From the NCBI GenBank assembly GCA_964649825.1, contig CAZYQW010000109.1, positions 1 to 38,036 on the forward strand: a DNA stretch of 38,036 bases. Direction: 5' to 3'. Below the pieces are notes generated by a model that made no database searches, was not told the DNA's origin, and saw only the letters and a list, made by a program, of their open reading frames with translations. The stretch comes from an uncultured Phycisphaeraceae bacterium (GTDB lineage: Bacteria; Planctomycetota; B15-G4; JADJEK01). Each line of letters opens with the position of its first letter. Positions within the stretch are counted from its first letter, which is position 1. Below are positions 3,282 through 37,497 of this stretch, one piece after another. Position numbers and translations under genes: made by a program.

Positions 3282-3304
3282 CGAGGGCTTCCGGCTCGTC
3301 GCGC
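3252..3304 (+). repeat. Direct duplication (2 x ~20 bp, ggcttccggctcgtcgcgcg) spanning the kinase stop codon
   Basis: The last codons of the kinase gene (WGFRLVARPR*) are repeated immediately after the stop. Confidence 0.5.
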
Positions 3305-3352
3305 GTCCCCGCGGATCGGGTCCGGCGCTACAATCGCGCCACGAGGTGCTCG

Positions 3353-3943
3353 ATGGTCGAAGGCGCGGAGTTCGAGCGGCGGTTCCGGCGGGCGAAGCGC
3401 GGCGACGCCGAGGCCCGGCGCGAGCTCCTGGAGGACGAGATCACCCGTCTCCGCGCGTACGTCCGCCTCAAGACCGGCCCCGCGATCCGCGCGCGCGAGT
3501 CCTGTTCCGACCTCGTGCAGTCGGCGTGCCGCGAGGCGCTGGAGGGCATCGATCGGATCGAGTGCGAGAACGCGCCCGCGTTCCGGCAGTGGCTGTTCCA
3601 GGTGGCCCTGAACAAGATCCGCCACCGCGCGGAGTACTGGGGCGCCGATCGCCGTGATCGGGCGCACGAGGAGCGGATGGGCGCCGCCGACGCGGAGGCG
3701 CTGTGGGCGACGTACGGCGGCGGCGACTCTCCCAGTCGGCACGCCTCCGCGCGCGAAGGCGTCGAGCGCATCGAGGCCGCGATGGACCGGCTGTCGGAAG
3801 AGCACCGCGAGATCATCGTCCAGGCGCGGATCCTCGGTCGCCCGCACCGCGACATCGCACGCGAGACCGGACGATCGGAGGAGGCCGTCCGTCAGCTCCT
3901 CGCCCGCGCGAGGGCGAGGCTCGGCATGTTGATGCTGGAGTGA
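3353..3943 (+). CDS. ECF-type RNA polymerase sigma-70 factor (STK-associated ECF family)
   Basis: Sigma-70 region 2 (LVQSACREALEGIDR..FRQWLFQVALNKIRHR) and region 4 HTH (EEHREIIVQARILGRPHRDIARETGRSEEAVRQLLARAR). Sits downstream of the kinase on the same strand. Confidence 0.85.
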   Translation: MVEGAEFERRFRRAKRGDAEARRELLEDEITRLRAYVRLKTGPAIRARESCSDLVQSACREALEGIDRIECENAPAFRQWLFQVALNKIRHRAEYWGADRRDRAHEERMGAADAEALWATYGGGDSPSRHASAREGVERIEAAMDRLSEEHREIIVQARILGRPHRDIARETGRSEEAVRQLLARARARLGMLMLE

Positions 3944-6317: not shown

Positions 6318-6848
6318 GTGAACGGACCTCGAACGAACGGCTCCCGGCGATCGCGGCGCACCACGCTCGTCGTGGCGTTGCTCGCGGGGCTGGCTGGAAT
6401 GGCCGCGTACGCGTTCCACTACGCCGAGGGGAGCTCCTATCTGAGCACCGATCCACGCGCGTGCACCAACTGCCACATCATGCAGTCGCAGTTCGATTCC
6501 TGGCAGAAGGCGAGCCATCACACCGCCGCGACCTGCGTCGACTGCCACCTTCCGGCGGAATTCCCGGAGAAGTACTTCGCCAAGGCGAAGAACGGCTGGA
6601 ACCACTCGAAGGCGTTCACGCTGCAGAACTTCCACGAGCCCATCCGCATCACCGAACCGAACGCCGAGATCCTCCAAGACAACTGCCTCAGATGCCACGG
6701 AGGAATCACCAGCGACATGGTCGCGGGCGCGACGACGCACGCCGACGCGGTTCGCTGTGTGCACTGTCATCGAACCGTCGGCCACGGGGAACCGGTCGGC
6801 CTCGGCGGACCGTTCGATCGCACCGAGATTCCAGAGGAAGACGAATGA
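6318..6848 (+). CDS. nrfH: Cytochrome c nitrite reductase small subunit NrfH (NapC/NirT-family tetrahaem quinol dehydrogenase)
   Basis: N-terminal TM helix. Four CxxCH haem motifs (CTNCH, CVDCH, CLRCH, CVHCH). GTG start after GAGGGAA. Stop overlaps the nrfA start (ATGA). Confidence 0.9.
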
Positions 6849-8284
6849 CACGATCATCGACTCGCGGCACGGTTTCCCCGCTCACCCTGTTCATCATCGT
6901 CGTCGCCGCCGCCCTCGGGGCGGCGGGCGCGCTTCTCATCGCGAACATCGCCGAGCGCAAGGCCGAGTCGAGGGCGACGCACGTCCGGGTGCGCGACGTC
7001 ACGGAGGACACGACCGATCCCGCGGTGTGGGGCGAGAACTGGCCGAAGCAGTACGACGCCTACCAGCGCACCGCGATCGCGACGCGCACGCGCTTCGGCG
7101 GACACGGCGGCAGCGAGGCGATGCCCGAGGAGAAGATCGACCGCGACCCGTGGCTGAAGCGGATGTTCCTCGGCTACGCCTTCTCGATCGACTATCGCGA
7201 CCGGCGCGGACACGCGTTCATGCTGCACGACCAAGAGCAGACGAAACGGCTGAACGTGCCGCAGTCCGGATCGTGCCTCCACTGCCACGCGTCGGTGATG
7301 CCGCTGTATCGCTCTCTCGGCGACGGCGACGCGATGAAAGGGTTCGAGAAGACGTACGAGATGTCGTACCAGGAGCTGAGCCAGAAGCTCCACGACGACG
7401 GGCACGCGCATCCGGTGTCGTGCGTCGACTGCCACGATCCCGACTCGATGCAGATCCGCGTCACGCGACCCGGGTTCGTCCACGCGATCCAGGCGCTGGC
7501 CGCGAGCGACGCGCCGACCCCGCACCTCCCCTCGATCGATCGGTGGCGCGCGGGGCCGCGGTCCTCGCCGTACGATCCGAACCAGGACGCATCGAGGCAG
7601 GAGATGCGCAGCTTCGTCTGCGGGCAGTGCCACGTCGAGTACTACTGCTCGACCAAGTTCAAGCTCACGTTCCCCTGGGCGCGCGGCTTGACCGTCGAGG
7701 ACGCCGAAGCGGTCTGGAACGAGACGCGCTTCAGCGACGGCGGTCGCTTCTACGATTACAAGCACAAGGAGACGGGGGCCGAGATCCTCAAGGCCCAGCA
7801 CCCCGAGTTCGAGCTCTGGAGCCAAGGGATCCACGCTCGAAGCGGCGTCGCGTGCGCGGACTGTCACATGCCGTATATGCGCGAAGGCGCGACCAAGATC
7901 TCCGACCATTGGGTCCGCAGCCCCCTTCTGAACATCAATCGCGCGTGCCAGACCTGCCACCACTTCTCGGAGGACGAGATCTCGAAGCGCGTCGACCTGA
8001 TCCAGTCGAAGAACCACGAGCTGCTGCAGCGCGCCGGCGCCGCTCTGATGGACCTCCTCGACGCGATCCTCGAGGCGAAGGAGGCGGGCGCCGACGCGAA
8101 CGCCCTCCTCCCCGCCCTCGAGCTCCAGCGCAAGGCGCAGTGGCGGCTCGACTTCATCGCGGCCGAGAACTCGATGGGCTTCCACGCCCCCCAGGAAGCG
8201 GCCCGCATCCTCGGCGAATCCGCGGACTACGCTCGCCAGGGTCAAGTGGCGGCGTTACGCGCGAAGGCGGCAGCCGGACGCTGA
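6845..8284 (+). CDS. nrfA: Cytochrome c nitrite reductase catalytic subunit NrfA (pentahaem, ammonia-forming)
   Basis: Signal/TM anchor. Five haem motifs, all CxxCH (CLHCH, CVDCH, CGQCH, CADCH, CQTCH), with no CxxCK. Typical NrfA blocks (KxRH-type active-site region; [12 protein letters not shown]). Confidence 0.9.
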
Positions 8285-9278: not shown

Positions 9279-10369
9279 GCCGGCCCGACTCGAGCCCCGA
9301 GGTCTTCCGAGGCGCCCGCTTCGGTGAGCACGAGCACGCACCCCCCCCATCCGGCGCCGGTCAGTCGCGCGCCGAGGACTCCGTCCTGCGACACGACCGC
9401 GTCGACGAGGAAATCGAGGGCTTCGCTCGACGCCTCGTAGTGCTCGCGCAGCGATGCATGCGTGCGCGTGATGAGGCGGCCGCACTCCTCGACGTCGCCG
9501 CGCGCGAGGGCGGCTTTGAACGCGAGCACGCGTTCGATCTCGGTCACCACGTGCCACGCTCGCCGGAAGAGCGTCGCGTCCATCCGATCCCGGACGCTCT
9601 CGAGCTGGTCTTGCGTCGCGTCGCGCAACGAATCGACGGGGATCCCGATCTCCCGCAGCCCGCGCACGGCGCGGCGGCACTCGTCGACGCGTTCGTTGAA
9701 CCGCGAGTCCTTCAGCGAGCGTCGCGTCCCCGAGTCGACGACCATGACGTCGAGGTGGTTCCGATCGAGCGGGACGTGGATGAAGGTCCCGTCCCGGCAG
9801 TCCAGGTAGAGCGCGCGCTCGGGAGTGGCGAGGGCGCAGGCCATCGGATCCATCAGGCCGCAGGCGATCCCGACGTACCGGGTCTCGGCCTCGAACGCGG
9901 CCCGCGCGATCCCCAGGTCGTCGAGACCGAGTCCGAACCGGTCGTTCAGAGCTCGCCCGCACGCGACCAGGAGCGAGGCCGAGGATGACAGTCCGGCGCC
10001 TACCGGCAGGTCGCCCGCGACCGCCACGTCGAAGCCGGGCAGGGCGTGGCCGCGCGCCACCAGCGAACGCGCCATCCCGATCGGGTACGCGGCCCATCCG
10101 CGCGGGCGCGAGGAGGCCGAGAGCTCCTCCTCTCCGCCGTCTCCCTCGTTCGCGCTCAGGAGCCGGACCCGGTCGTCGTCGCGCGCCCGTACGGCCACGA
10201 ACGTGCCGCGGTTCAACCCGATCGGGAGCACCGGACCGAGGTTGTAGTCGACGTGGGCCCCGATCAGGTTCACCCGACCCGGAGCGAACGCCACGACCGG
10301 CTCGCTCCCCGCCCCGAGCGTGGAGAGGAGCTCGAGGACCTGCGCAGCCATCGAGGTCGGGGATTCCAT
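9209..10369 (-). CDS. galK: Galactokinase (GHMP kinase family)
   Basis: Galactokinase signature PGRVNLIGAHVDYN. GHMP ATP-binding motif PVGAGLSSSASLLVA. C-terminal GHMP domain. Confidence 0.85.
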   Translation of the reverse strand: MESPTSMAAQVLELLSTLGAGSEPVVAFAPGRVNLIGAHVDYNLGPVLPIGLNRGTFVAVRARDDDRVRLLSANEGDGGEEELSASSRPRGWAAYPIGMARSLVARGHALPGFDVAVAGDLPVGAGLSSSASLLVACGRALNDRFGLGLDDLGIARAAFEAETRYVGIACGLMDPMACALATPERALYLDCRDGTFIHVPLDRNHLDVMVVDSGTRRSLKDSRFNERVDECRRAVRGLREIGIPVDSLRDATQDQLESVRDRMDATLFRRAWHVVTEIERVLAFKAALARGDVEECGRLITRTHASLREHYEASSEALDFLVDAVVSQDGVLGARLTGAGWGGCVLVLTEAGASEDLGARVGPAYRARFGRDAQFHRVAGANGAER

Positions 10370-10441
10370 TGATCGCTCCCGGCCTTATGCTATCGTTCCG
10401 CGTTCGATGCGGTTCTCGATCTGCGAATCGTCGTGACGTGT

Positions 10442-10519
10442 GGTGGGTGTAGCTCAGTTGGTTAGAGCGCCACACTGTGGCTGTGGAGGTCGCGGGTTCA
10501 AATCCCGTCACTCACCCCA
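10442..10519 (+). tRNA. tRNA-His (anticodon GTG) with extra 5' G(-1)
   Basis: Cloverleaf read manually. Acceptor GTGGGTG/CACTCAC. D-arm GCTCAGTTGGTTAGAGC. Anticodon loop CTGTGGC. T-arm GCGGGTTCAAATCCCGT. Discriminator C, then CCA. Confidence 0.85.
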
Positions 10520-10560
10520 TCCTCACGACCTGCGACCGAGACCACCGTCGAACCCAAGGT

Positions 10561-10637
10561 GCGCCCGTAGCTCAACTGGATAGAGTATCGGGCTTCGAAC
10601 CCGAGGGTTGCAGGTTCGAGTCCTGCCGGGCGTACCA
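10561..10637 (+). tRNA. tRNA-Arg (anticodon TCG)
   Basis: GCGCCCGTAGCTCAACTGGATAGAGTA. Anticodon stem TCGGG/CCCGA with loop CTTCGAA. T-arm GCAGGTTCGAGTCCTGC. Ends ...CGGGCGTACCA. Confidence 0.85.
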
Positions 10638-10660
10638 ACTCCCTTGCTCCTCCCCCTATC

Positions 10661-10700
10661 CCATCGGTCCCCATCGGTCCCCATCGGTTGCCAGCGGTTG
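10661..10700. repeat. 10-bp tandem repeat (ccatcggtcc x ~4, last copies degenerate) between tRNA-Arg and tRNA-Lys
   Basis: ccatcggtcc ccatcggtcc ccatcggttg ccagcggttg, seen directly. Confidence 0.8.
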
Positions 10701-10866
10701 CACTGGGCCCTCCGGTCTCGGCCGCGTGACCTGTGAACATGGGATCACCGAAACGCGCCGTCGAGCGGGCGGCCAAGCTTCTCGATCGCGACCTTGACAC
10801 GGAATCGAGTTCCGCTAAAAGAGCAGGTTTCCCTCCCGACCGCGGGAGGCGATGGCGGAAACGCGG

Positions 10867-10942
10867 GCCCTCTTAGCTCAGTTGGTAGAGCAGCTGATTC
10901 TTAATCAGCGGGTCGTAGGTTCGAGTCCTACAGAGGGTACCA
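10867..10942 (+). tRNA. tRNA-Lys (anticodon CTT)
   Basis: Acceptor GCCCTCT/AGAGGGT (G1-U72 wobble). D-arm GCTCAGTTGGTAGAGC. Anticodon stem GCTGA/TCAGC with loop TTCTTAA. T-arm GTAGGTTCGAGTCCTAC. ACCA 3' end. Confidence 0.85.
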
Positions 10943-14398: not shown

Positions 14399-14483
14399 GC
14401 GAGGATGGCGGAACCGGCAGACGCGCCAGATTTAGGATCTGGTGGGGCAACCCGTGGGGGTTCGAGTCCCCCTCCTCGCACCA
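14399..14483 (+). tRNA. tRNA-Leu (anticodon TAG), class II with long variable arm
   Basis: GCGAGGATGGCGGAACCGGCAGACGC D-arm. Anticodon stem CCAGA/TCTGG with loop TTTAGGA. Long variable arm. T-arm GGGGGTTCGAGTCCCCC. ...TCCTCGCACCA. Coordinates are +/-1 because local base counting was ambiguous. Confidence 0.8.
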
Positions 14484-14630: not shown

Positions 14631-17018
14631 TCACCCGGGCCACGTCCAGTCGCGGTGCCGCGGCGCGTCGACGCCGTGGCACCACGCGTAGTTCCGGCTG
14701 TCGATCTGCATGTCGCGCAGATCCTCCTTCACGTGCGCGCCGCCGACACGGAGGCGCGGCACCCGGTCGATGACGTCGATCGCCAGGCTGAACCGGTCGA
14801 TCTCGTTGGCGATCGCGAGCTCGAGCGGCGTGTTGATCGCGCCGCGCTCCTTGTAGCCGCGGACGTGGAGGTTCCGGTGGTTGGTGCGCCGGTAGGCGAG
14901 CCGGTGGATCAGCCACGGATAGCCATGGAAGTTGAAGATGATCGGCTTGTCGGTGGTGAAGAGACTGTCGAAGTCGCGATCCTCCAGGCCGTGCGGATGC
15001 TCGGAGGCGTGCGTCATCCGGAACAGGTCGACGACGTTGACGAAGCGGATCTTGAGGTCGGGGAAACGCTCGCGGAGCAGCGCGACCGCGGCGAGCGCCT
15101 CCTGGGTCGATACGTCGCCGCAGCTCGCCATCACGACGTCCGGGTCGGCGCCCTGGTCGTTGCTCGCCCAATCCCAAATGCCGATCCCTTTGGTGCAATG
15201 GCGGACGGCGGCGTCCATGTCGAGATACTGGAGATGGCGCTGTTTGTCCGCGACGATCACGTTCACGTCGTTCGTGCTGCGCAGACAATGATCGGCGACG
15301 GAGAGGAGCGTGTTCGCGTCCGGCGGCAAGTAGATGCGGGTAACGGACGGGCTCTTGTTCACCACGAGGTCCAGGAAGCCGGGATCCTGGTGGGTGAAGC
15401 CATTGTGGTCCTGGCGCCAGACGGTGGACGTGATCAGCAGGTTCAACGACGAGATCGGCGCGCGCCACGGCAGGCGCGCCGACATGTCGAGCCACTTGGC
15501 GTGTTGGTTGAACATCGAATCGATCACGTGGACGAACGCCTCATAGGTCGACAAGAAGCCGTGGCGCCCGGTCAGCAGGTATCCCTCGAGCCAGCCCTCG
15601 AGGGTGTGCTCCGAGAGCATCTCCATCACGCGCCCGTCGGCGGCGAGTTCGCTGCCGTCCGCGTCCTCGGGCAGCATGTCGGCGAGCCAGGTCTTCTTGG
15701 TCGCCTCGTAGACGGCGTCGAGCTTGTTCGACTTCGTCTCGTCCGGTCCGAACACGCGGAAGTTGTCCGGGTTCTTGCGCAGCACGTCGCGCAGGAGCGC
15801 TCCCAACGGCCGCGTCGGCTCGGCCCGGCTCCCGCCCGGCTGGCCGACGGTGAGTGCGTACTCGCGGAAGTCCGGCATCCGCAGCGGCCGGCGGAGCAGC
15901 CCGCCGTTGGCGTGCGGGTTCGCGCTCATGCGTCGCGTGTCCGCCGGCGCCAGCGCACGCAGCTCGGGGACCAGCCTCCCCGCGTCGTCGAAGAGCTCCT
16001 CGGGATGGTAGCCGCGGAGCCACTGCTCGAGCTGCTTCAGGTGCGCGGGGTTCTCGCGCACCGCGGCGAGTGGAACCTGGTGCGCGCGGAAGAAGCCCTC
16101 GACCTTGTGGCCGTCGACCACGGCCGGCCCGGTCCAGCCCTTCGGGCTCCGGAGCACCAGCATCGGCCACCGCGGACGCGAAGGAGTACCGGTGCGACGC
16201 GCCTCCTCCTGCACCCGGCGGATCTCGAGCACGCAACGCTCCAACGTCCCCGCCATCGCTTGGTGCATCGTCCGCGGATCGTCGCCCTCGACGAAGTGCG
16301 GGGTCCAGCCGTAGCCGCGAAACAGCGCGTCGAGCTCCGCGTGCGAGATGCGCGCGAGCACCGCCGGATTGTGGATCTTGTACCCGTTGAGGTTGAGGAT
16401 CGGCAGCACGGCTCCGTCGCGAATCGGGTTCAGGAACTTGTTCGAGTGCCACGCCGTCGCGAGCGGCCCCGTCTCCGCCTCACCGTCCCCCACCACCACC
16501 GCCACGAGCAGCTCCGGGTTGTCGAACGCCGCCCCGAACGCGTGCGCCAAGCTGTAGCCAAGCTCGCCGCCTTCGTGGATCGAGCCGGGCGTCTCCGGCG
16601 TGCAGTGGCTGCCGATGCCGCCCGGGAAGGAGAACTCCTTGAAGAAGGTCCGCATCCCCGCCTCGTCCTCGCTCTTGTTCGGATAGACCTCCGCGTACGT
16701 CCCCTCGAGGTAGACGGGGCCGAGCACGCCCGGCGCGCCGTGGCCGGGACCCGCGAGGAAGATCGCGGAGAGGTCGTACGCACGGATGAGCCGGTTCAAG
16801 TGCACATAGATGAAGCTGAGGCCGGGGCTGGCCCCCCAATGGCCGAGCAATCGCTCCTTCACGTGCGCCGCATCGAGCGGCTTGCGCAGCAGCGGATTGT
16901 CCCGGAGATAGATCATGCCCGCGGCAAGATAGTTGCATGCGCTCCAGTACGCGTGGAGCGCATTCAGCTCGTCTTCGGCCAGGGGCTCGCCGCCCGCCGC
17001 TGGATGCGGGTTCGCCAT
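14631..17018 (-). CDS. xfp: Xylulose-5-phosphate/fructose-6-phosphate phosphoketolase
   Basis: Phosphoketolase signatures EGGELGYS and [23 protein letters not shown]-binding GDGE region. ~795 aa from the MANPHP start, which has a GGAGG SD. Confidence 0.9.
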
Positions 17019-17095
17019 CGGAGGCACCTCCATTCGTTTCGCGTGGTCGTTTCGACCACGGTATCGGAGCGGTCCAAAGGGAGTACGCAAGACTC

Positions 17096-18247
17096 ATGCC
17101 CAGGCCACGAACTCAGGTCGACACGGCGCCGCTGCGCATCGCCGTCTTCAACGCCGGCAGCGCGACCGTGAAGACCGCGATCGTCGAGGTCGACTCCGGC
17201 GACGCGACGGTGCTGGGGCGCGGTTCGCGCGATGTCCCCGCGGGCGGCGATCGCGTGGCGTCCTTCCGCGCCGCCCTGTCCGACGCCGGCGCGGACTCGG
17301 GCCCGATCGACGGGGTCGGACATCGCGTCGTCCACGGCGGACGCTCCTACTCCGCGCCGGTGCGGATCGACGCCGAGGTCGAGCGCGTCATCCAGGACCT
17401 TGCTCGGCTCGCCCCGCAGCACAACCCCCCCGCGCTCGAGGGGATCCGCGTCGCGCGCGAGGCGTTCCCGGACCGTCCGGCGGTCGCCGTCTTCGACACC
17501 GGCTTCCACGCCGCGCGCTCCGTGGAGTCGACCCGCTACGCGCTGCCGTGGGATCTGGCGGAGTCGATCGGTTTGATCCGCTACGGCTTCCACGGGATCG
17601 CGCACGCGTCGCTCGTCGACGCGGTCGCGGAGGCGGAGTCGAAGCCTCCCACCGAGGTGACGGCGGTCACGCTGCAGTTGGGCGGAGGATGCTCGGCATG
17701 CGCCGTCGAGGGGGGAAGGTCGATCGAGACCTCGATGGGGTTCTCGCCGCTCGAGGGGCTTCCCATGGCGACCCGCTCGGGGAACGTCGACCCATCCGTC
17801 CTGCTCGAGCTGATGGACCAGGGCCGAACGTCGGCGGAGATCCGCGAGCTGCTCACGCGGCGGTCCGGCCTTCTCGGCCTGGCCGGCCACGCGGACATGC
17901 GCGACGTCCTGGCCGCCGAGTCGGCGGGCAGCGAGCGTGCGCGGGTCGCCGTCGGCCATTTGGTGCATCACGTCGTGGCGACGATCGGCGCGTACCTCAC
18001 GCTGCTCGGTGGCCACGGGTGCGTCGTGTTCGGCGGCGGAGTCGGCACGCACTCCGCCGAAGTTCGACGGCGAGTCGCGGCGGGCCTGACCGCCTGGAAC
18101 GTCGAGCTCGACGCGACGCGGAACGAAGCGAACGTGCCCGGTCTCATCAGCACGGTGCGTCGCCGTCCGGTGTACGTGTTCGAGACCGACGAGGAACGGC
18201 GCATCGCCCGGAGCGTGTACGAGGTGCTCGCGGAGGACCGCGCTTGA
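17096..18247 (+). CDS. ackA: Acetate kinase
   Basis: AckA motifs IAVFNAGSATVK, GHRVVHGG, LAPQHNPPAL, VAVFDTGFH, RYGFHGIAH, SMGFSPLEGL. Divergent from xfp across a 77-bp intergenic region. Confidence 0.9.
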   Translation: MPRPRTQVDTAPLRIAVFNAGSATVKTAIVEVDSGDATVLGRGSRDVPAGGDRVASFRAALSDAGADSGPIDGVGHRVVHGGRSYSAPVRIDAEVERVIQDLARLAPQHNPPALEGIRVAREAFPDRPAVAVFDTGFHAARSVESTRYALPWDLAESIGLIRYGFHGIAHASLVDAVAEAESKPPTEVTAVTLQLGGGCSACAVEGGRSIETSMGFSPLEGLPMATRSGNVDPSVLLELMDQGRTSAEIRELLTRRSGLLGLAGHADMRDVLAAESAGSERARVAVGHLVHHVVATIGAYLTLLGGHGCVVFGGGVGTHSAEVRRRVAAGLTAWNVELDATRNEANVPGLISTVRRRPVYVFETDEERRIARSVYEVLAEDRA

Positions 18248-18260
18248 GCTCGCCGCGCCG

Positions 18261-20036
18261 TCATCCCGGCCAGAACAACGGGATCAACGCCGTCGCGGTC
18301 AGCCACATGATGACGTTCAGCGGCGCGCCGAAGCGCACGTAGTCCTTGAACAGGTAGCCGCCCGGCCCCATGACGAGGGTGTTCGTCTGGTAGCCGATCG
18401 GCGTGGCGAAGCTCGCGCTCGCGCCGAAGGTGATGGCGACCAGCAACGGCTTCGGATCGATGCCGATCTTGTGGGCGATCCCGAGCGCGATCGGCACGAG
18501 GAGGACGGCCGACGCGTTGTTCGACAGGACTTCGGTCAGGATGCTCGTGATCAGGTAGACCGCACCGACGAGGACGAAGATCCCGACCCCTCCGCCGATG
18601 CCCGCGATCGAGCTCGCGATCTCGCCGGCGACTCCGACCTTCTCCATAGCCGCGCCGAGCGGGATCGTGGCCGCGAGCAGCAGAAGGACCGACGTGTCGA
18701 GCGCGCGCGTGGCGTCGGCGACGTCCAGGCAGCGCGTGATGATCATGGCCACGGCTCCCACGAGCCCGAGGACCGGGAGAGGCGCCAGCCCCAGCGCGGC
18801 GGCAGCCACCACAGCGACGAGGATGCCGACCGCGAGCGGCGCCTTCCGTGGCTTCGTCAGAGTGTGTTCGACTCCCTGCACGAGGAGCAGGTCGCCGTCC
18901 TCCTCCAGGGCGCGCAACGAGGAGGGTTCGCCCTGGACGAGGAGCACGTCGCCCGAATGGATACGCAGCGAGCCGAGCTTGTACTGGTGCTGCCGGCCCA
19001 GCCGGCGGAGCGCGAGCACCTGCACACCGAAGCGGCGGCTGAGCCCGAGATCGCGCACGCGACGGTGACGAAAGCTCGACGTCGGCGTCACGACGGCCTC
19101 GGCGATCCGAAGGTCGACGCGGCTGATCTTCACGCGGTGGTCGTCGGCCAGGGCGGTGCCGGCCTCGACCCTCTTTTGCTCGATGAGTCCGTGGATCGAC
19201 CTCGCCGTCCCTTCCAGCAGGATCACGTCGCCGGCCGCAAGCACGAACTCCGGCCGCGGCCTGAGATACGGCACCTCGTCCCGCACCACCTCGACCACCT
19301 TCATCTCGTCGGCTCCGCGCAGGGCGGACGCCAGGTCCTTGCCGACGAGCGCGCTCTCCTCCGGCAACGTGACCACGGTGACGAAACGGTCGCCGCCCGT
19401 CGCCGGCAGCAGCTCGGAGAGGGCGGATCGGTGCGGCAGGACCCGCGGCCCGACGAGCACGACGTACAACCCTCCGATCACGAGGTAGATGACGCCGAGG
19501 CCGCTGAACTCGAACATCCCGAAGCCGGAGCCGCCGCTCTGGCGGTGCAGGGAGTCGACGAGGATGTTCGTGCTGGTCCCGATCAGGGTGCACGTTCCCG
19601 CGAGGATCGAGACGTAGCTGAGGGGCAGGAGCATCCGCGACGGCGCGATCCCGGTCCGCCGGGCCAACGCGAGGGTGACGGGAATCATGAGCGCGACGAC
19701 GGGAGTGTTGTTCAAGAACGCGGAGAGGACCGCGGTCGGCACGAAGAGCGCGATGAGCAGGCGGCGCTCGCCCCGCTCGCCGAGCTGCACGAGCCTTCCC
19801 GCGAGCACGTCCATGACTCCGGACCGCTCCACGCCGGCGCTCAATACGAGCATCGCGGCCACCGTGATCGTGGCCGGGCTCGAGAAGCCCGAGAACGCCT
19901 CGGCCGGAGAGAGCAGCCCCGTCAACGCGAGCGCCGCGATCGTGCCAAGGGCCGTGATCTCGATCCGCACCACCTGCGTGACGAGCAGCCCCAGCACGAC
20001 GACGAGGAGAACGCACAGCAACGCGGTCGAGCTCAT
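18261..20036 (-). CDS. SLC13/DASS-family anion permease with two central TrkA-C (RCK_C) domains
   Basis: Two multi-TM halves (N- and C-terminal) separated by ~2 soluble TrkA-C-like segments (VTLPEESALVGKDL..., AEAVVTPTSSFRHRRVRDLG...). Length ~590 aa, typical of this family. Confidence 0.75.
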   Translation of the reverse strand: MSSTALLCVLLVVVLGLLVTQVVRIEITALGTIAALALTGLLSPAEAFSGFSSPATITVAAMLVLSAGVERSGVMDVLAGRLVQLGERGERRLLIALFVPTAVLSAFLNNTPVVALMIPVTLALARRTGIAPSRMLLPLSYVSILAGTCTLIGTSTNILVDSLHRQSGGSGFGMFEFSGLGVIYLVIGGLYVVLVGPRVLPHRSALSELLPATGGDRFVTVVTLPEESALVGKDLASALRGADEMKVVEVVRDEVPYLRPRPEFVLAAGDVILLEGTARSIHGLIEQKRVEAGTALADDHRVKISRVDLRIAEAVVTPTSSFRHRRVRDLGLSRRFGVQVLALRRLGRQHQYKLGSLRIHSGDVLLVQGEPSSLRALEEDGDLLLVQGVEHTLTKPRKAPLAVGILVAVVAAAALGLAPLPVLGLVGAVAMIITRCLDVADATRALDTSVLLLLAATIPLGAAMEKVGVAGEIASSIAGIGGGVGIFVLVGAVYLITSILTEVLSNNASAVLLVPIALGIAHKIGIDPKPLLVAITFGASASFATPIGYQTNTLVMGPGGYLFKDYVRFGAPLNVIMWLTATALIPLFWPG

Positions 20037-27901: not shown

Positions 27902-28122
27902 CCATATCCTCCTGGTGCGTGATGTGGCTCGAATTCGGCCGCTCGCTCGCCGGATTTCCATCCGCAGCTCGTTGTTCCCGCGGCCCGACTACTTGGCTCC
28001 CGTTCAACCCGAGTGCCAGCAACTTCGACGTTGATCGGCGATTCGAAGTTCGAACCTGAGAAAAAACGTGGGAAGCGACTTACGTTTGTTCGCCACACGC
28101 CGCGAAGAGATGAGAGGTATCC

Positions 28123-28668
28123 ATGTCGTGGATTCGAACGGTCGTTCCCGACGACGCCGATCCGGAGCTCGCCCGCGCGTACGACCGAGTTCGCGACCCC
28201 GAGTCGGGTCAGCTCGACCACATCATGCAGGTCCATTCTCTGCACGTCGCGGGTCTGCATGCGCACTACGGTCTCTATGCGGCGGTGATGCGCGGCACGA
28301 GGCGCCTCCGGAAGGTCGACCGCGAAATGATCGCGCTCGTCGTCAGCCTCGAGAACGAGTGTCGCTACTGAGTGGCGCATCATCGGCGCGGTCTGCGCCG
28401 AGCGCTCCGCGACGACGATCTCGCTGCCTCGATCGAGCACGACTTCGAGCGCGCAAGGCTCGATGATCGCCGGCGCGCGATGCTGCGTTTCGCGGTCCAG
28501 CTCACGCGATCGCCGGGGCGCATGCGCCGGGCCGACGTCGACCAGCTCCGCGCGGCCGGGTTCTCGGACGTCGACGTGCTCCACATCGTCGAGGTGACGG
28601 CCTACTACGCATACGCGAACCGGATCGCCGACGGGCTTGGCATCGAGCTCGAGTCCAGCCCCGATTGA
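28123..28668 (+). CDS. AhpD/carboxymuconolactone-decarboxylase (CMD) family selenoprotein; in-frame TGA (28369-28371) read as selenocysteine
   Basis: Two same-frame ORFs are separated only by TGA. Read through, they give a full-length ~181-aa CMD/peroxidase-related protein. The TGA lies exactly at the second Cys of the family motif N-x-C-x-Y-C-x-x-x-H (here NECRY-U-VAHH). Confidence 0.7.
28384..28400 (+). promoter_or_regulatory. Candidate bacterial SECIS hairpin (cggcgc-GGUCU-gcgccg), 12 nt downstream of the UGA
   Basis: A 6-bp GC stem with apical loop GGUCU. Spacing and loop sequence resemble the E. coli fdhF SECIS apical stem-loop (..GCAGGUCUGC..). Confidence 0.5.
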
Positions 28669-28835
28669 CGTAAGCCGTTCCCAGTTCATGTCCGGCCCAT
28701 CAACTCGGCCGGCCAGCGCCTTGGTGCTGCAGTGAGCGCGTGTTACACTCCCGGCCCACTGAGCCCACGTGGCCCGGAGCCCACGGGCCCAGGGCCCATC
28801 CCGTCCCCTCCTTGGCCGAGGAGCCGCCTACGCCC

Positions 28836-33906: not shown

Positions 33907-36804
33907 TCAGTCCTCGCCGGCGGGACTCGCGCGGTCCAGCGTGCCGAGCCGAGCCTTCCAGCGCCACACCTCCTCGGGCCGAAGTCGCTCGTACAGGGCG
34001 ATCAACGCCACGATCGGCTTCTCCAGCTTCGGGCTGACCGGACCGAACCGGTCGCAGTGGCGTACGTACGACTCCAAGAGGTACGGCTCGGCCCGCTCGG
34101 GCCCGCCGGCGAGAAGGAGCTCCCCGCCCGCGTTGTGCAGCGCGAACAACGCGTCGTCGCCGTTTCGCTCCCGTTCGTCGGGCTGGAGCTCGAGCCAGGC
34201 GGCGTAGTGCATCGCGCGCGCGACGCGCGATCCGCCGGCCTTCCCGTGGAGCATCCCGAGGTCCCAGTGGGCGCGGCGAAGCTCGCCGAACGGGTCCTCC
34301 TCATGATGCCGCCGCATGAACGCGAGGGCTCGTTCGAGGTAGTCGATCGCGAGCTCGAACCGGCCGTAGTGGTGCATGATGACGCTGTATGCCCGCAGCG
34401 CGCGAGACCACATCAGGCTCGACCTCTCCGCCGTCGCCTCCAACAGAACCAGCGCCTCGTACGCGATCGGCTCGGCCTCGCCGAGCCGGCCCGTGCGGAA
34501 CCGATACTCCGCGCAGTTCAGCATCGTCTCCGCCACGTCGAGGGAGAGCTCGCCGCTCGACCGGCGCCGGCGATCGAGCGCGTCGTCGACGAGGGTGATC
34601 GCTTCCGCGAAGTTCCGCTGATCGGCCAGCGTGCGCGCGAGGAGTACCTGCTGCGTCAGCGTCTCCGGATGGTCCGGACCCATCACCGCGCGGCTTCTCG
34701 CCAGCACGTCCCGATAGAGCGTCTCGGCCTCGGCGACCCGTCCCTGCTTGTGTCGAAGCTGTGCGACGTTCCCACGCGTGATCAGCGTGTTGGGATGATC
34801 CGGGTCTCTTCGCAGGTGGAGCTCGAGGGCTCGTTCGAGCAGCGGGCCCGCCTCCTCGAAGCGGCCCCCGATCAGCAGGACGAACCCGAGGTTGTTCAGC
34901 GGCTCACACAGTCGTGGCGAGTCCGACCCGGCGACGCGCGTGATCCCGCCGACGGCGGCGCGGAACCACGTCTCCGCCTCGGCGAGCCGGTTCTGTGCCC
35001 GATAGACGCCGCCGATGTCGTTCTGCGCCGCGAACACCTCGACGTCCTCGTCGCCGCGGACGCGCCGCAGGATCTCGAACCGGCGCATGAGGACGGTGTG
35101 CGCAAGCTCGAGGCGGCCGGCGGTTTTGTGGATGACGGCGAGAACGTACAGCGTGTCGGTGTACCTCGGGTCTTCCTCGGCGAGACGCGCGCCGAAGATC
35201 TCGAGCGCGCGTTCCGCGTGTTCCAGCGCCGGGTCGAGCACGCCGAGGTGCGCGTAGACCCGTCCGATCGTCTGGTGAATCCGACCCGCGATCAAAGGAC
35301 GCTCGCCGAACCGCTCCTCCACGCCGGCCGCGCTCCGGTCGACGACGTCGCGCACCGTTTGATCGCGTGAGCCGTGCCATGGATCGCCGGACGAGAGCAT
35401 CTCGGTCAGGAAACCGGCGGTCACCTCCGCGTCGGCGAGCCCACGCTCCGCGTCCGCCTGCGCGCGCTCGGCAGCGGAGCGTTCGCGCTCGGCGTCGGCG
35501 CGTGCCACCTTGGCGTCCTCCAGCGAGCCGAGCGTGATGACGAGCGCGATCGAGAGCGCGACGAGCACCGCGGCCGTCGCCGCGACCGGGATCCGGTTGC
35601 GCTGCACGAACCGCGTCGCCCGGTAGATGACGGTGTCGCGCTGCGCCCGGACCGGGCGGCCGTCCACGAACCGTCGCAGGTCCTCGGCGAAGTCATGCAC
35701 GCTCGCGTAGCGCCGCGATGGATCGACGCGAAGCGCCATCATGACGATTCGATCGAGGTCGCCCCGCAGGGTCCGGCCCAGCGCCTTCGAGGTCGTCCGT
35801 CGGCGACGTGCGCACTCGACGGCGTCGTAGTCCGTCTGGCGCGACGCCGCGCCGCCGTCGACGGCGTAGCTCGGCGGCGCCGGCGGCTCATCGTTCACCA
35901 ACCGTTCCATCTCCGCCGGCGACAGCGACGAAAGGTCGTGTGGAAGGCGCCCCGTCAGGAGCTCGTACAGCACGACGGCAAGCGAATACTGATCGCTCGG
36001 CGGCCGGATCGTCGCCCGCCGGAACTGCTCCGGGCTCGCGTACGACGGGGTCATGTAGCCGAGCGAGTCGGTGGTCAGGGTGAGATCGCCCCCCAGCTTC
36101 TCCGGACTCAGGACTCCGGCGAGCCCGAAGTCGAGCAGTTTGGGATCGCCGTCGGGCCCGACCAGGATGTTCCCCGGCTTGAGGTCGCGGTGAATGACTC
36201 CGTTCTTGTGGGCGTGCTCCACCGCGCCGCAGACCTTGACGAAGATGCCGATGCGCTCGCGCACGTCCAACTCCGCGGCGTCGCAGTAGCGGTCGATCGG
36301 CACGCCGTCGACGTACTCCATGACGAGGTACGGAACCCCGTCCGCGTCGGCGCCGGCGTCGATCAAGCGCGCGATGTTCGGATGGACGAGCGCGGCGAGG
36401 ACGCGACGCTCGCGCCGGAAGCGGGACAGGACTTCTCCCGAGTCGAGGCCGGGGCGCACGCGCTTCACGGCCACTGTGCGGTCGAACGTGCCATCGATCC
36501 GCCGAGCGAGGAAGACCTCGCCCATTCCGCCCGCACCGATCGGCTCGCCGAGCTCGTACGCGCCGATCCGACGGGTACGCCCGGGGCTCTCGAGCACCTC
36601 GGAGTAGGCGGGGAACACCACGATCGGGTCGAGCGCGGCCTCCGACTCCTCGACCGCGATCAGACCCTCGATTTCGCGCAGCAGATCCGGATTGCCGTAC
36701 GTCCGCTCACGAAGGAACGCGCGGCGCTCGTCGGCGGGGACATCGAGGGACTCCTCGAAGAGCTGCAGCACGCGACGCTGGCGATCCGGGTCGCGCTCAG
36801 TCAT
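33907..36804 (-). CDS. Transmembrane Ser/Thr protein kinase with C-terminal TPR repeats
   Basis: Kinase motifs (GAGGMGEVFLA, VAVK, HRDLKPGNILV, DFGLA, SPEQ). One TM helix. ~550 aa of TPR-like repeats. Start overlaps the upstream ECF sigma stop by 8 nt. Confidence 0.85.
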   Translation of the reverse strand: MTERDPDRQRRVLQLFEESLDVPADERRAFLRERTYGNPDLLREIEGLIAVEESEAALDPIVVFPAYSEVLESPGRTRRIGAYELGEPIGAGGMGEVFLARRIDGTFDRTVAVKRVRPGLDSGEVLSRFRRERRVLAALVHPNIARLIDAGADADGVPYLVMEYVDGVPIDRYCDAAELDVRERIGIFVKVCGAVEHAHKNGVIHRDLKPGNILVGPDGDPKLLDFGLAGVLSPEKLGGDLTLTTDSLGYMTPSYASPEQFRRATIRPPSDQYSLAVVLYELLTGRLPHDLSSLSPAEMERLVNDEPPAPPSYAVDGGAASRQTDYDAVECARRRRTTSKALGRTLRGDLDRIVMMALRVDPSRRYASVHDFAEDLRRFVDGRPVRAQRDTVIYRATRFVQRNRIPVAATAAVLVALSIALVITLGSLEDAKVARADAERERSAAERAQADAERGLADAEVTAGFLTEMLSSGDPWHGSRDQTVRDVVDRSAAGVEERFGERPLIAGRIHQTIGRVYAHLGVLDPALEHAERALEIFGARLAEEDPRYTDTLYVLAVIHKTAGRLELAHTVLMRRFEILRRVRGDEDVEVFAAQNDIGGVYRAQNRLAEAETWFRAAVGGITRVAGSDSPRLCEPLNNLGFVLLIGGRFEEAGPLLERALELHLRRDPDHPNTLITRGNVAQLRHKQGRVAEAETLYRDVLARSRAVMGPDHPETLTQQVLLARTLADQRNFAEAITLVDDALDRRRRSSGELSLDVAETMLNCAEYRFRTGRLGEAEPIAYEALVLLEATAERSSLMWSRALRAYSVIMHHYGRFELAIDYLERALAFMRRHHEEDPFGELRRAHWDLGMLHGKAGGSRVARAMHYAAWLELQPDERERNGDDALFALHNAGGELLLAGGPERAEPYLLESYVRHCDRFGPVSPKLEKPIVALIALYERLRPEEVWRWKARLGTLDRASPAGED

Positions 36805-37363
36805 CCGCGAGCGCCTTCTGGAGCCACACGCGTGCCGACTTCCAGCGCCGCTCCGCCGTGCGGAGCTGCAGCCCGAAGTGCTCCGCGACGTCCGCCATGT
36901 CGACGCCCCCGAACAGCCTCATCTCGGCGATCTGCCCGAGCTGCTCGTCGATCTCCTCGAGCCGCTTCAACGCATCGTCGAGCACGAGGACGTCGTTCCC
37001 CGTCGCCGGCTCCGACGGCCCGGACTCGACGGACAGCGTGACGTCGCGCACCGCCCCGCCCCGCCGTTTCGCGCCCCGGCGACGCGCGTGGTCGACGAGC
37101 AGCGACCGCATCACCCGTGACGCCAGCGCGTAGAACTGCCGGCGGCTCTCCCAGTGGCCCGCTTCCGGCCGGATCAGCCGGATCCACGCGTCGTGCACGA
37201 GTTCGGTCGGGTTCAACGTGTGGTTCGCCCGCTCGTTCCCCAGGTGGCGTTGCGCGAGCTTGCGGAGCTCCGCGTGCAGGATCGGCGCGAACTCGTCACG
37301 CGCCCGCGCGTCGCCCTCGCACAGGCGTTTCAGAAGCTCCGTTGCGTCCGGTCCAGTGGCCAT
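36797..37363 (-). CDS. ECF sigma-70 factor of the Ser/Thr-kinase-associated family (TIGR02999-like)
   Basis: N-terminal TELLKRLCEGDARARDEFAPILHAELRKLA. Region 2 (HDAWIRL) and region 4 HTH (EIAEMRLFGGVDMADVAEHFG). Forms an operon with the downstream kinase. Confidence 0.85.
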   Translation of the reverse strand: MATGPDATELLKRLCEGDARARDEFAPILHAELRKLAQRHLGNERANHTLNPTELVHDAWIRLIRPEAGHWESRRQFYALASRVMRSLLVDHARRRGAKRRGGAVRDVTLSVESGPSEPATGNDVLVLDDALKRLEEIDEQLGQIAEMRLFGGVDMADVAEHFGLQLRTAERRWKSARVWLQKALADD

Positions 37364-37497
37364 CCAAGGAGGATACCTCGCGAATGCCAACCGCGACGAC
37401 GGAACGACGCCACCCCACGACCCTCCCTGCGCGCCGCGCCACGGCAGGCCGACCGGCGGGCCCCGATCCGCTTGGAATCTCGCAACTTACGGTCCGC

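What the first reader, a model, noticed from the sequence alone, without database searches (positions are those of the whole stretch)
28123..28668. AhpD/CMD-family gene interrupted by an in-frame TGA at the conserved Cys: probable selenoprotein that automated ORF calling splits in two
ORFs 28123-28371 and 28372-28668 are in the same frame and separated only by TGA. Read through, they form one ~181-aa carboxymuconolactone-decarboxylase/AhpD-like protein. The TGA sits exactly where the second Cys of the family redox motif N-x-C-x-Y-C-x-x-x-H belongs (here ENECRY-[TGA]-VAHH), giving a C-x-x-U redox pair. Sec replacing a catalytic Cys is the hallmark of bacterial selenoproteins, and AhpD-like selenoproteins have been reported in Deltaproteobacteria. 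Otherwise it would be annotated as two fragments or a pseudogene.
Basis: partly seen in the sequence, partly recalled or inferred. Interest (0 to 1): 0.8.

Follow-up and report, generated by a model that had tools for sequence, protein, structure and literature searches.

The report
AhpD-like selenoprotein gene with SECIS hairpin
The two adjacent ORFs are one gene for a small redox enzyme whose internal TGA encodes selenocysteine, a correct call but an ordinary member of a selenoprotein family catalogued since 2005.

Summary
Window 28123-28668 (+) is one 181-codon gene with an in-frame TGA at 28369-28371. Read through, it matches TIGR01926 (134.6 bits, cutoff 81.8). The TGA aligns with the second Cys of N-x-C-x-Y-C in solved Cys homologues (2pfx, 3c1l, 6k40).

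- **TGA conservation:** 80 homologous loci from at least five phyla all carry TGA there (81/81 with the window), while the genes' own terminators vary.
- **Not two genes:** both halves are conserved, and the codon after the TGA is usually not a start.
- **SECIS hairpin:** a 6-bp hairpin with loop GGUCU follows (28384-28400). It sits in the same register as the E. coli fdhF SECIS. It shows compensatory changes at two synonymous Arg third positions and strong codon bias.
- **Sec machinery:** tRNA-Sec, selA and selB lie within 10 kb of the gene in several relatives. The window itself holds no Sec machinery, so its genome could not be tested.

The family ("AhpD-like protein", COG2128/TIGR01926, CxxU) is already an established and abundant selenoprotein family. 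Novelty is low. The practical point is that public databases hold over 100 clusters of truncated ~99-aa fragments of it.

The parts
28123..28668 (+). Complete selenoprotein coding sequence: 181 codons plus the terminal TGA at 28666-28668. AhpD-like, TIGR01926.
   Evidence: TIGR01926 scores 134.6 bits (cutoff 81.8) and Pfam CMD 43.7 bits. The start is confirmed by homologues beginning MAWI/MSWI, and the N-terminal part is 82 codons in 44 of 81 genes.
28112..28117 (+). Shine-Dalgarno-like GAGAGG, 5 nt upstream of the ATG.
   Evidence: Read directly from the sequence. Inferred, not tested.
28324..28326 (+). Glu68 codon, the proton-relay Glu of the AhpD signature E-x11-C-x-Y-U-x3-H.
   Evidence: Invariant in 81/81 genes. 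Corresponds to Glu118 of M. tuberculosis AhpD and Glu36 of PA0269 (PMC3141380).
28360..28362 (+). Cys80 codon (TGT), the first residue of the C-x-x-U redox pair. Presumed resolving thiol.
   Evidence: Invariant in 81/81 genes. Aligns with the first Cys of CxxC in 2pfx, 3c1l and 6k40.
28369..28371 (+). UGA codon read as selenocysteine (Sec83).
   Evidence: TGA in 81/81 homologous genes, never TAA or TAG. Aligns with the second Cys of CxxC in Cys homologues.
28381..28383 (+). His87 codon, the conserved His of C/U-x3-H.
   Evidence: Invariant in 81/81 genes. It is His in the PDB homologues, where position 86 is Ala or Ser.
28384..28400 (+). SECIS core hairpin CGGCGC-GGUCU-GCGCCG. Stem arms are 28384-28389 and 28395-28400; the apical loop is 28390-28394. 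In this window an extra U-A pair (28383/28401) extends it.
   Evidence: The 17-nt hairpin folds at -10.7 kcal/mol and the 19-nt version at -12.6. The stem is 97% paired across 78 distinct sequences, with 19 double-sided compensatory changes at pair 18/30. GGUCUG occupies +22..+27 from the U of UGA, exactly as in E. coli fdhF.

Best explanation
Window 28123-28668 is a single gene for an AhpD-like (TIGR01926/COG2128) thiol-selenol oxidoreductase.

**Recoding step.** During translation the UGA at 28369-28371 is not read as stop. A 17-nt hairpin lies inside the coding sequence, 12 nt downstream (CGGCGC-GGUCU-GCGCCG, encoding R-R-G-L-R-R). It acts as a bacterial SECIS element. It is bound through its GGUCU apical loop by the Sec-specific elongation factor SelB carrying Sec-tRNA(Sec), which delivers selenocysteine to the ribosomal A site.

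**Enzyme step.** The product carries the AhpD proton-relay signature Glu68-x11-Cys80-x-Tyr82-Sec83-x3-His87. Sec83 replaces the second Cys of the family's CxxC. It most likely acts as the attacking nucleophile and cycles with Cys80 through a selenenylsulfide. The enzyme would reduce a peroxide or an oxidised partner protein such as a peroxiredoxin.

**Shown here:** one gene; the conserved UGA at the Cys column; the selected RNA hairpin; conservation of the catalytic residues; presence of selC, selA and selB in relatives.

**Inferred:** actual Sec insertion in this organism; which of the two redox residues attacks first; the substrate or partner.
For: **Family and Cys column**
- TIGR01926 scores 134.6 bits against a cutoff of 81.8; CMD scores 43.7 against 23.
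- PDB homologues 2pfx, 3c1l and 6k40 (E 3e-26 to 7e-19) place Cys at the TGA column, N-x-C-x-Y-C.
- 13 of 19 non-fragment representatives at 33-52% identity also have Cys there.

**Conserved TGA and a single gene**
- 81/81 genes from Planctomycetota, Actinomycetota/Acidimicrobiia, Acidobacteriota, Gemmatimonadota and others have TGA there. Their terminators are TGA 55, TAG 23, TAA 3.
- Mean identity to the window is 56% in the N-terminal half and 62% in the C-terminal half. E68, C80, U83, H86 and H87 are invariant.
- The codon after the TGA is ATG or GTG in only 25 of 81 genes.

**Hairpin**
- The stem is 97% paired. The pair of two synonymous Arg third positions reads GC 48, AU 9, CG 8, GU 8, UA 2, other 3. 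None of 500 shuffles reach the observed covariation.
- Codon bias in the hairpin versus elsewhere in the same genes: Gly GGT 79/81 vs 17.5%; Leu CTG 81/81 vs 37%; Arg CGC 76/81 vs 43%.
- The loop and register are identical to the E. coli fdhF SECIS, which I verified at 100% identity.

**Machinery and genetic code**
- tRNA-Sec is present in 5 loci, and selA plus selB in 3 of those, within 10 kb of the gene.
- TGA terminates 14 of 20 confident ORFs in the window, so it is not globally reassigned.

**Literature**
- This family is listed as a CxxU selenoprotein.
- The AhpD relay residues are described in PMC3141380.
Against: - No tRNA-Sec, selA, selB or selD lies in the 38-kb window.
- The hairpin's folding energy is not distinctive against shuffles in this 70% GC background (z = -0.8 and -1.2).
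- No Rfam family matched the region.
- Much of the hairpin's nucleotide conservation is confounded by the invariant HHRRGLRR peptide. Only the synonymous sites are independent evidence.
- The 81 sequences are related, so naive probabilities overstate significance.
- There is no experimental evidence of Sec insertion.
- No conserved neighbouring gene identifies a partner.
Confidence: 0.93

Rival explanations
1. Pseudogene or sequencing error. On this view the TGA is a nonsense mutation or base-call error in a former Cys codon (TGC/TGT to TGA), and the gene is dead.
For: TGT/TGC to TGA is a single-base change. One relative (L082) shows a different single-base variant, TTA, at the same codon. Gene callers do split the window's gene into 82 + 62 aa.
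Against: - TGA is at the same column in 81/81 genes across several phyla.
- The same sequence was independently assembled in Logan SRR10083321.
- Both halves keep the coding signature and 56-62% identity, with all catalytic residues invariant.
- The hairpin shows selected compensatory changes.
Confidence: 0.01
2. Two genuine separate genes: an 82-aa product and a 98-aa product translated by termination-reinitiation at TGA-GTG.
For: In the window the codon after the TGA is GTG, a possible start. Public databases hold over 100 clusters of ~99-aa proteins starting exactly there.
Against: - The next codon is not ATG or GTG in 56 of 81 genes. Examples are ATC 15, ATT 11 and GTC 10, plus ACC, ACG, GCG, CAG, TGC and AGG. 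The ~99-aa entries are therefore an ascertainment artefact of gene callers.
- The split would cut the CxxC redox motif and delete its second residue.
- The stop is never TAA or TAG.
- Cys homologues are single chains in crystal structures.
Confidence: 0.01
3. UGA is decoded as a standard amino acid rather than Sec. This could be Trp or Gly through a reassigned genetic code (code 4 or 25), or Cys/Trp through near-cognate read-through.
For: Some database entries translate the column as W (P0001-P0004) or G (P0139, P0193). Those callers may have chosen an alternative code, but this was not verified. P0001's DNA does have TGA there.
Against: - TGA terminates 14 of 20 confident ORFs in the window and 55 of 81 of these genes themselves.
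- The genome is about 70% GC, unlike code-4 or code-25 lineages.
- A SECIS hairpin under selection is unnecessary for simple read-through.
- Trp or Gly at a catalytic Cys position would inactivate the motif.
Confidence: 0.02
4. Relic selenoprotein gene. The gene is of the Sec type, but the window's host has lost, or never had, the Sec-decoding machinery. For example, the gene arrived by horizontal transfer, and only a truncated 82-aa peptide is made.
For: No sel genes or tRNA-Sec are in the window. The gene has no conserved neighbourhood and a patchy cross-phylum distribution, which is compatible with horizontal transfer.
Against: - The gene shows no decay. It has a perfect 7-bp stem with a GGUCU loop, all catalytic residues, an intact downstream frame and a normal GC3.
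- 38 kb is about 1% or less of a typical genome of this kind, so absence of sel genes from it says little.
- Sec-insertion gene sets are documented in several Planctomycetes (PMC4807772). The window's assignment to that phylum is itself only an inference.
Confidence: 0.03

Closest known systems
AhpD-like selenoprotein family. Called 'AhpD-like protein' (COG2128, CxxU) in Zhang, Fomenko & Gladyshev 2005, PMC1088965; 'AhpD-like 1' in the GOS study, PMC2398784; listed as TIGR01926/CxxU in the 2026 review PMC13188914.
   Same: Same HMM family (TIGR01926, above cutoff). Same CxxU motif with Sec at the second redox position. SECIS lies immediately downstream of the UGA. Widespread in environmental bacteria.
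   Different: Nothing of substance. This copy is at most 66% identical to any homologue found in the species-representative genomes. It sits in a ~70% GC, probably Planctomycetota-like genome. I could not compare it directly with the papers' example accession.
Cys-containing TIGR01926 proteins with solved structures: 2pfx, 3c1l (Mlr4105), 6k40/2oyo/2prr ('AhpD', 'peroxidase-related protein').
   Same: Same fold family by sequence (E 3e-26 to 1e-17 over about 160 residues). Same N-x-C-x-Y-C/U-x3-H motif and the conserved Glu 12 residues before the first Cys.
   Different: They have Cys, not Sec. They lack the HHRRGLRR peptide that encodes the SECIS: the corresponding stretch is H-G-A-A-V/L-R.
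Mycobacterium tuberculosis AhpD, the partner of AhpC.
   Same: Same proton-relay architecture. Glu118-Cys130-x-His132-Cys133-x3-His137 maps to Glu68-Cys80-x-Tyr82-Sec83-x3-His87 (PMC3141380).
   Different: - Tyr replaces His132, as in P. aeruginosa PA0269.
- The protein has a single ~180-aa CMD-type domain arrangement.
- No ahpC or peroxiredoxin gene is adjacent here, and none recurs in relatives.
- It is therefore not shown to be an AhpC reductase.
E. coli fdhF SECIS element.
   Same: Hairpin inside the coding sequence. GGUCUG occupies nucleotides +22 to +27 counted from the U of UGA in both. G and U are in the apical loop.
   Different: The stem sequence differs. No position for a bulged U like that of fdhF (from my own knowledge) is evident in this perfect 6-7 bp stem. 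The lower stem seen in fdhF is only 45% paired across this family.
NF041238 AhpD_rel_CFYUT (seleno)protein, 'hypothetical protein 1' of the Sargasso Sea study.
   Same: CMD-related, CxxU motif. It is also truncated in databases, with fragments starting right after the UGA, for example P0123 and P0138.
   Different: It is a two-domain protein of about 350-400 aa with motif C-F-Y-U. The window protein scores only 41.9 bits against a cutoff of 175, so it is not a member.

Membership tests
AhpD-like selenoprotein (TIGR01926 / COG2128, CxxU) | Full-length match to the TIGR01926 profile above the curated cutoff. | tested here: met
   134.6 bits against a cutoff of 81.8, covering residues 2-174 of 181 and profile positions 1-173 of 178.
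AhpD-like selenoprotein (TIGR01926 / COG2128, CxxU) | In-frame UGA aligned with the second Cys of the CxxC redox motif of Cys homologues. | tested here: met
   2pfx, 3c1l and 6k40 have Cys at that column, as do 13 of 19 non-fragment representatives. TGA is present in 81/81 close homologues.
AhpD-like selenoprotein (TIGR01926 / COG2128, CxxU) | Bacterial SECIS stem-loop just 3' of the UGA, with G in the apical loop. The criteria are as I recall them from bSECISearch: loop about 16-37 nt from the UGA and a stable stem. | tested here: met
   The hairpin is at 28384-28400, with loop GGUCU starting 18 nt after the UGA and a folding energy of -10.7 kcal/mol. 72 of 81 homologues fold at -7.5 kcal/mol or better. 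Covariation is 0/500 shuffles.
AhpD-like selenoprotein (TIGR01926 / COG2128, CxxU) | Sec-decoding machinery (selA, selB, selC, selD) in the same genome. | not testable with these tools
   None is in the 38-kb window, and the rest of the genome is not available. In relatives, tRNA-Sec is present in L006, L014, L025, L033 and L046, and selA plus selB in L006, L033 and L046.
AhpD-like selenoprotein (TIGR01926 / COG2128, CxxU) | Physical incorporation of selenium at the UGA position. | not testable with these tools
   This needs 75Se labelling or mass spectrometry.
AhpD/CMD catalytic type (M. tuberculosis AhpD mechanism) | Proton-relay signature E-x11-C-x-[H/Y]-C-x3-H. | tested here: met
   Glu68, Cys80, Tyr82, Sec83 and His87 are present. 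Glu68, Cys80, Sec83 and His87 are invariant in 81 genes. The relay is defined in PMC3141380.
AhpD/CMD catalytic type (M. tuberculosis AhpD mechanism) | Genomic or functional coupling to AhpC or a peroxiredoxin. | tested here: not met
   The neighbours in the window are an uncharacterised 480-aa protein and an Exo_endo_phos protein. The largest neighbour cluster across the 80 loci occurs in only 7 loci.
NF041238 AhpD_rel_CFYUT (seleno)protein | Profile score above the cutoff, and a two-domain architecture of about 357 aa with a C-F-Y-U-T motif. | tested here: not met
   41.9 bits against a cutoff of 175. The window protein has a single domain of 181 aa and the motif C-R-Y-U-V.

The most novel reading that the evidence does not exclude
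The HHRRGLRR clade to which this gene belongs may be an essentially Sec-only subfamily that has spread across at least five phyla by horizontal transfer. On this reading it carries a self-contained, nearly invariant SECIS whose loop and register copy the E. coli fdhF element. That would imply an unusually universal SelB-recognition module. The clade is also systematically mis-annotated: more than 100 clusters of ~99-aa 'peroxidase-related enzyme' fragments sit in NCBI, JGI, ENA and UniRef. The evidence here (81/81 TGA, one TTA exception, no shared synteny) is compatible with this reading. I did not build a phylogeny or survey the remaining ~490 homologues.
Probability: 0.4. Interest if true: 0.3.

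Novelty: new member of a known kind. Interest (0 to 1): 0.15.

Why it matters
For biology, little is new. AhpD-like CxxU proteins are among the most abundant known prokaryotic selenoproteins: fourth in the Global Ocean Sampling survey, with 299 Sec members.

The practical value is in annotation. Standard gene callers split or truncate this gene, so the N-terminal half and the active-site Sec are lost. The window's copy is recorded as 82 + 62 aa. Over 100 database clusters hold only the ~99-aa C-terminal fragment, some of them named by NCBI and UniRef.

The gene also marks its host as a probable selenium user. In addition, the 81-gene set gives a clean natural example of SECIS selection acting on synonymous sites inside a coding region.

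Tried and rejected
- **Folding-energy significance of the SECIS region.** Not distinctive against shuffles in 70% GC (z = -0.76 and -1.24). I relied on comparative evidence instead.
- **Rfam scan of the window.** Only four tRNAs were found and no SECIS family hit.
- **Closing pair 15/33 and a lower stem (columns 4-10 with 39-45).** Pair 15/33 is unpaired in 38 of 78 sequences. The lower stem is 45% paired. Both are rejected as general features; the lower stem exists only in a subclade.
- **Sec machinery in the window.** No tRNA-Sec. No SelA, SelB or SelD by Pfam on 20 ORFs or by tblastn with the E. coli proteins.
- **Genes beside tRNA-Sec in L006.** These are unrelated housekeeping genes: a sigma factor, NAD synthase and glutamine synthetases. 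selA and selB were later found on the other side of the gene.
- **Other selenoprotein candidates in the window.** None. Two further TGA hits are antisense artefacts.
- **Conserved synteny or a functional partner.** None.
- **Exact look-up of the 98-aa fragment.** Not on record. The 82-aa fragment is on record.
- **Sigma-70 promoter and intrinsic terminator scan around the gene.** Nothing found.
- **Structure prediction.** Not run, because sequence-level PDB hits (E = 3e-26) already fix the fold.

Full report
**1. The observation**

The sequence is as described. An ATG at 28123 is preceded by GAGAGG five bases upstream. It opens a frame that runs to a TGA at 28369-28371. The frame continues without any other stop to a TGA at 28666-28668. 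The local peptide is ...SLENECRY-[TGA]-VAHHRRGLRR....

Both halves have the codon-position GC pattern of real genes in this 70% GC window: 0.73/0.40/0.82 and 0.79/0.46/0.86. A scan of both strands for TGA codons with coding signal on both sides finds only this site as a genuine candidate. The two other hits are antisense shadows of a minus-strand gene.

**2. What the protein is**

With Cys substituted at the TGA, the 181-aa product matches NCBIfam TIGR01926 'peroxidase-related enzyme' end to end. It scores 134.6 bits against a cutoff of 81.8. It also matches Pfam CMD. It does not belong to NF041238 (AhpD_rel_CFYUT), scoring 41.9 bits against a cutoff of 175.

Solved structures of Cys homologues align over about 160 residues: 2pfx, 3c1l, 6k40, 2oyo and 2prr, with E-values from 3e-26 to 1e-17. 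In the three alignments displayed (2pfx, 3c1l, 6k40) the second Cys of N-x-C-x-Y-C falls exactly on the TGA column.

An exhaustive representative search with the window's own C-terminal ORF recovered 19 non-fragment relatives at 33-52% identity. Thirteen have Cys at that column.

The AhpD proton relay described for M. tuberculosis is Glu118, Cys130, His132, Cys133, His137. For P. aeruginosa PA0269 it is Glu36, Cys48, Tyr50, Cys51, His55 (PMC3141380). It maps with identical spacing onto Glu68, Cys80, Tyr82, Sec83, His87.

**3. Is the TGA a conserved feature?**

A homologue search returned five 'full-length' proteins and more than 100 clusters of ~99-aa proteins. All of the fragments begin exactly one codon after the TGA column. 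Four of the full-length entries show W at the column and one shows L. P0001, one of the W entries, has TGA in its DNA.

A scan of species-representative genomes found 572 relatives. The 80 best loci come from Planctomycetota, Acidimicrobiia and other Actinomycetota, Acidobacteriota, Gemmatimonadota and others. All 80 have TGA at the column, giving 81/81 with the window. None has TAA or TAG. The terminators of the same genes are TGA 55, TAG 23 and TAA 3.

Mean identity to the window is 56% upstream and 62% downstream of the TGA. Glu68, Cys80, His86 and His87 are invariant. The codon after the TGA is ATG or GTG in only 25 of 81 genes. The rest are ATC, ATT, GTC, ACC, GCG, TGC, AGG and others. 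This excludes two separately initiated genes. It also shows that the database fragments are gene-caller artefacts.

TGA is the ordinary stop of 14 of 20 confident ORFs in the window, so the genetic code is standard.

**4. The recoding signal**

Twelve nucleotides after the UGA lies CGGCGC-GGUCU-GCGCCG (28384-28400). It folds at -10.7 kcal/mol, or -12.6 with the U-A pair 28383/28401. Folding energy alone is not distinctive in this GC-rich background, and Rfam reports nothing. The case therefore rests on comparison.

In the 81-gene alignment (A2) the six stem pairs are 97% paired. The third pair joins the third positions of two Arg codons, both synonymous sites. It reads G-C 48, A-U 9, C-G 8, G-U 8, U-A 2 and unpaired 3, with 19 double-sided changes. 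None of 500 shuffles reach the observed covariation. Sliding the partner by 1 to 3 columns collapses pairing from 90% to 19-53%.

Synonymous codon choice inside the element is extreme compared with the rest of the same genes:

| Residue | Codon | In the hairpin | Elsewhere in the same genes |
|---|---|---|---|
| Gly | GGT | 79/81 | 17.5% |
| Leu | CTG | 81/81 | 37% |
| Arg | CGC | 76/81 | 43% |

Flanking codons vary freely, for example TGC/TGT 59/22, TAC/TAT 53/28 and CAC/CAT 45/36. The sequences are related, so naive probabilities overstate significance. The contrast between neighbouring sites within the same lineages is the robust point.

I recalled the E. coli fdhF SECIS from memory, and it proved an exact match to fdhF in 5,420 E. 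coli genomes. In both fdhF and this gene, GGUCUG occupies nucleotides +22 to +27 from the U of UGA. A putative lower stem and an extra closing pair are not general.

The HHRRGLRR peptide that encodes the hairpin is absent from the Cys homologues. This is consistent with the RNA element shaping the protein sequence.

**5. Decoding machinery**

The window contains four ordinary tRNAs and no tRNA-Sec. Its 20 confident ORFs include no sel gene.

Among the 80 related loci, ARAGORN finds tRNA-Sec in five: L006, L014, L025, L033 and L046. That is five of only 22 tRNAs in 1.25 Mb. tblastn with E. coli SelA and SelB (fetched) finds both genes 7-8 kb downstream of the AhpD-like gene in L006, L033 and L046, with E-values from 1e-47 to 1e-72. 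So genomes carrying this gene do carry the Sec apparatus.

Complete Sec-insertion gene sets are also published for several Planctomycetes (PMC4807772). That phylum supplies the closest homologue (L001, 66% identity). It also fits the window's gene content: Ser/Thr kinases and a PF07638 ECF sigma factor. For the window's own genome this remains untested.

**6. Mechanism**

- **Shown:** one gene; a conserved UGA at the catalytic Cys column; a selected SECIS-type hairpin in the fdhF register; an intact AhpD relay.
- **Inferred from established knowledge of bacterial Sec insertion and of AhpD:** SelB-GTP-Sec-tRNA(Sec) binds the GGUCU loop and inserts Sec83. Sec83 and Cys80 cycle through a selenenylsulfide, assisted by Glu68, Tyr82 and His87, to reduce a peroxide or an oxidised partner.
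- **Unknown:** the partner. The gene has no conserved neighbours. The largest neighbour cluster occurs in 7 of 80 loci, there is no synteny with the window, and no peroxiredoxin is adjacent.

**7. Comparison with what is known**

'AhpD-like protein' (COG2128, CxxU) was reported as a new selenoprotein family in the Sargasso Sea study, with 27 sequences and a predicted SECIS (PMC1088965). In the Global Ocean Sampling survey it is 'AhpD-like 1', with 299 Sec members, the fourth most abundant family (PMC2398784).

Reviews from 2022 and 2026 list it as COG2128/TIGR01926, CxxU (PMC9312934; PMC13188914). BSepDB uses it as its worked example. The 2006 genome survey lists 'AhpD-like (COG2128)' in, for example, Alkaliphilus, and a separate 'distant AhpD homolog' in Geobacter.

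The window's gene meets every sequence-level criterion of this family.

**8. Verdict**

The feature is an ordinary, unannotated member of a well-known selenoprotein family. Novelty is 'new member of a known kind', and interest is low (0.15).

The residual uncertainty is whether this particular host has the Sec machinery. The most novel reading still open is a Sec-only, horizontally spread clade with a near-universal fdhF-like SECIS that is systematically truncated in databases. That reading is of modest interest.

Noticed in passing
L006 (tRNA-Sec 2218-2313; gene ~10001-10540; selA ~17120-18301; selB ~18365-19501). Same layout in L033 and L046. L014 has tRNA-Sec at 539-634 and L025 at 920-1015.: In three Acidimicrobiales MAGs the AhpD-like selenoprotein gene lies between selC (about 8 kb upstream) and selA-selB (about 7 kb downstream). 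Two further Acidimicrobiia MAGs also have selC about 8.5 kb upstream. This is loose linkage of a selenoprotein gene with the Sec machinery, and the intervening genes are unrelated housekeeping genes.
   Followed up: partly
L082 3001-3549 (GCA_024275815.1, JAJRYI010000263.1), protein P0005: One homologue has TTA (Leu) instead of TGA at the Sec column while the SECIS hairpin is intact (CGT CGC GGT CTG CGA). It is either a very recent inactivating G-to-T change or an assembly error. An ArsR-type HTH_20 regulator gene lies directly upstream.
   Followed up: partly
Proteins P0006-P0120 and L081 2577-3122: Public databases hold over 100 clusters of ~99-aa 'peroxidase-related enzyme' entries that are C-terminal fragments of this selenoprotein. 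Some carry NCBI or UniRef names. The window's own copy is recorded in the Logan assembly of SRR10083321 as two products of 82 and 62 aa.
   Followed up: yes
Proteins P0139, P0193 (Gly); P0156, P0243 (Ser); P0128 (Leu); P0265 (Ala) in alignment A3: Some non-fragment relatives at 33-52% identity show Gly, Ser, Leu or Ala at the Sec/Cys column. The Gly cases might be TGA translated under another genetic code, such as code 25. The others may be real losses of the redox residue. I did not check their DNA.
   Followed up: no
Proteins P0123, P0138 (fragments) and P0127 (405 aa): Several 250-400-aa two-domain CMD proteins were hit. P0123 and P0138 begin right after a C-F-Y-[stop] position (compare P0127, which reads CFYCVSAH). 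They look like truncated members of the separate CFYU 'AhpD-related (seleno)protein' family NF041238.
   Followed up: partly
window 28750-28800: The intergenic stretch upstream of the Exo_endo_phos gene (probable ATG at 28836) contains five closely spaced GCCCAC/GCCCA motifs (ggcccac tgagcccac gtggcccggagcccac gggccca gggcccat). Their function is unknown.
   Followed up: no
window 234-3943 and 33907-37390: There are two Ser/Thr protein kinase plus sigma factor gene pairs. One is a kinase with a C-terminal FGE-sulfatase domain next to a sigma-70 region-4 protein. The other is a kinase with TPR repeats next to a PF07638 ECF sigma factor. From my own knowledge, this pairing is typical of Planctomycetota-like genomes.
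   Followed up: no
window 6461-8284; 14631-18247; 10443-10942: Other content of the window includes an NrfA-type cytochrome c552 nitrite reductase, a divergent phosphoketolase and acetate kinase pair, and a tRNA-His/Arg/Lys cluster with tRNA-Leu at 14399-14483.
   Followed up: no
Alignment A2 columns 4-10 with 39-45 (e.g. L004, L006, L042, L064, L070): A subclade, mostly Acidimicrobiia with V-V after Sec and K-D-D downstream, can form an additional 7-bp lower stem that starts right at the UGA, as in the full E. coli fdhF SECIS. It is not conserved family-wide (45% paired).
   Followed up: partly
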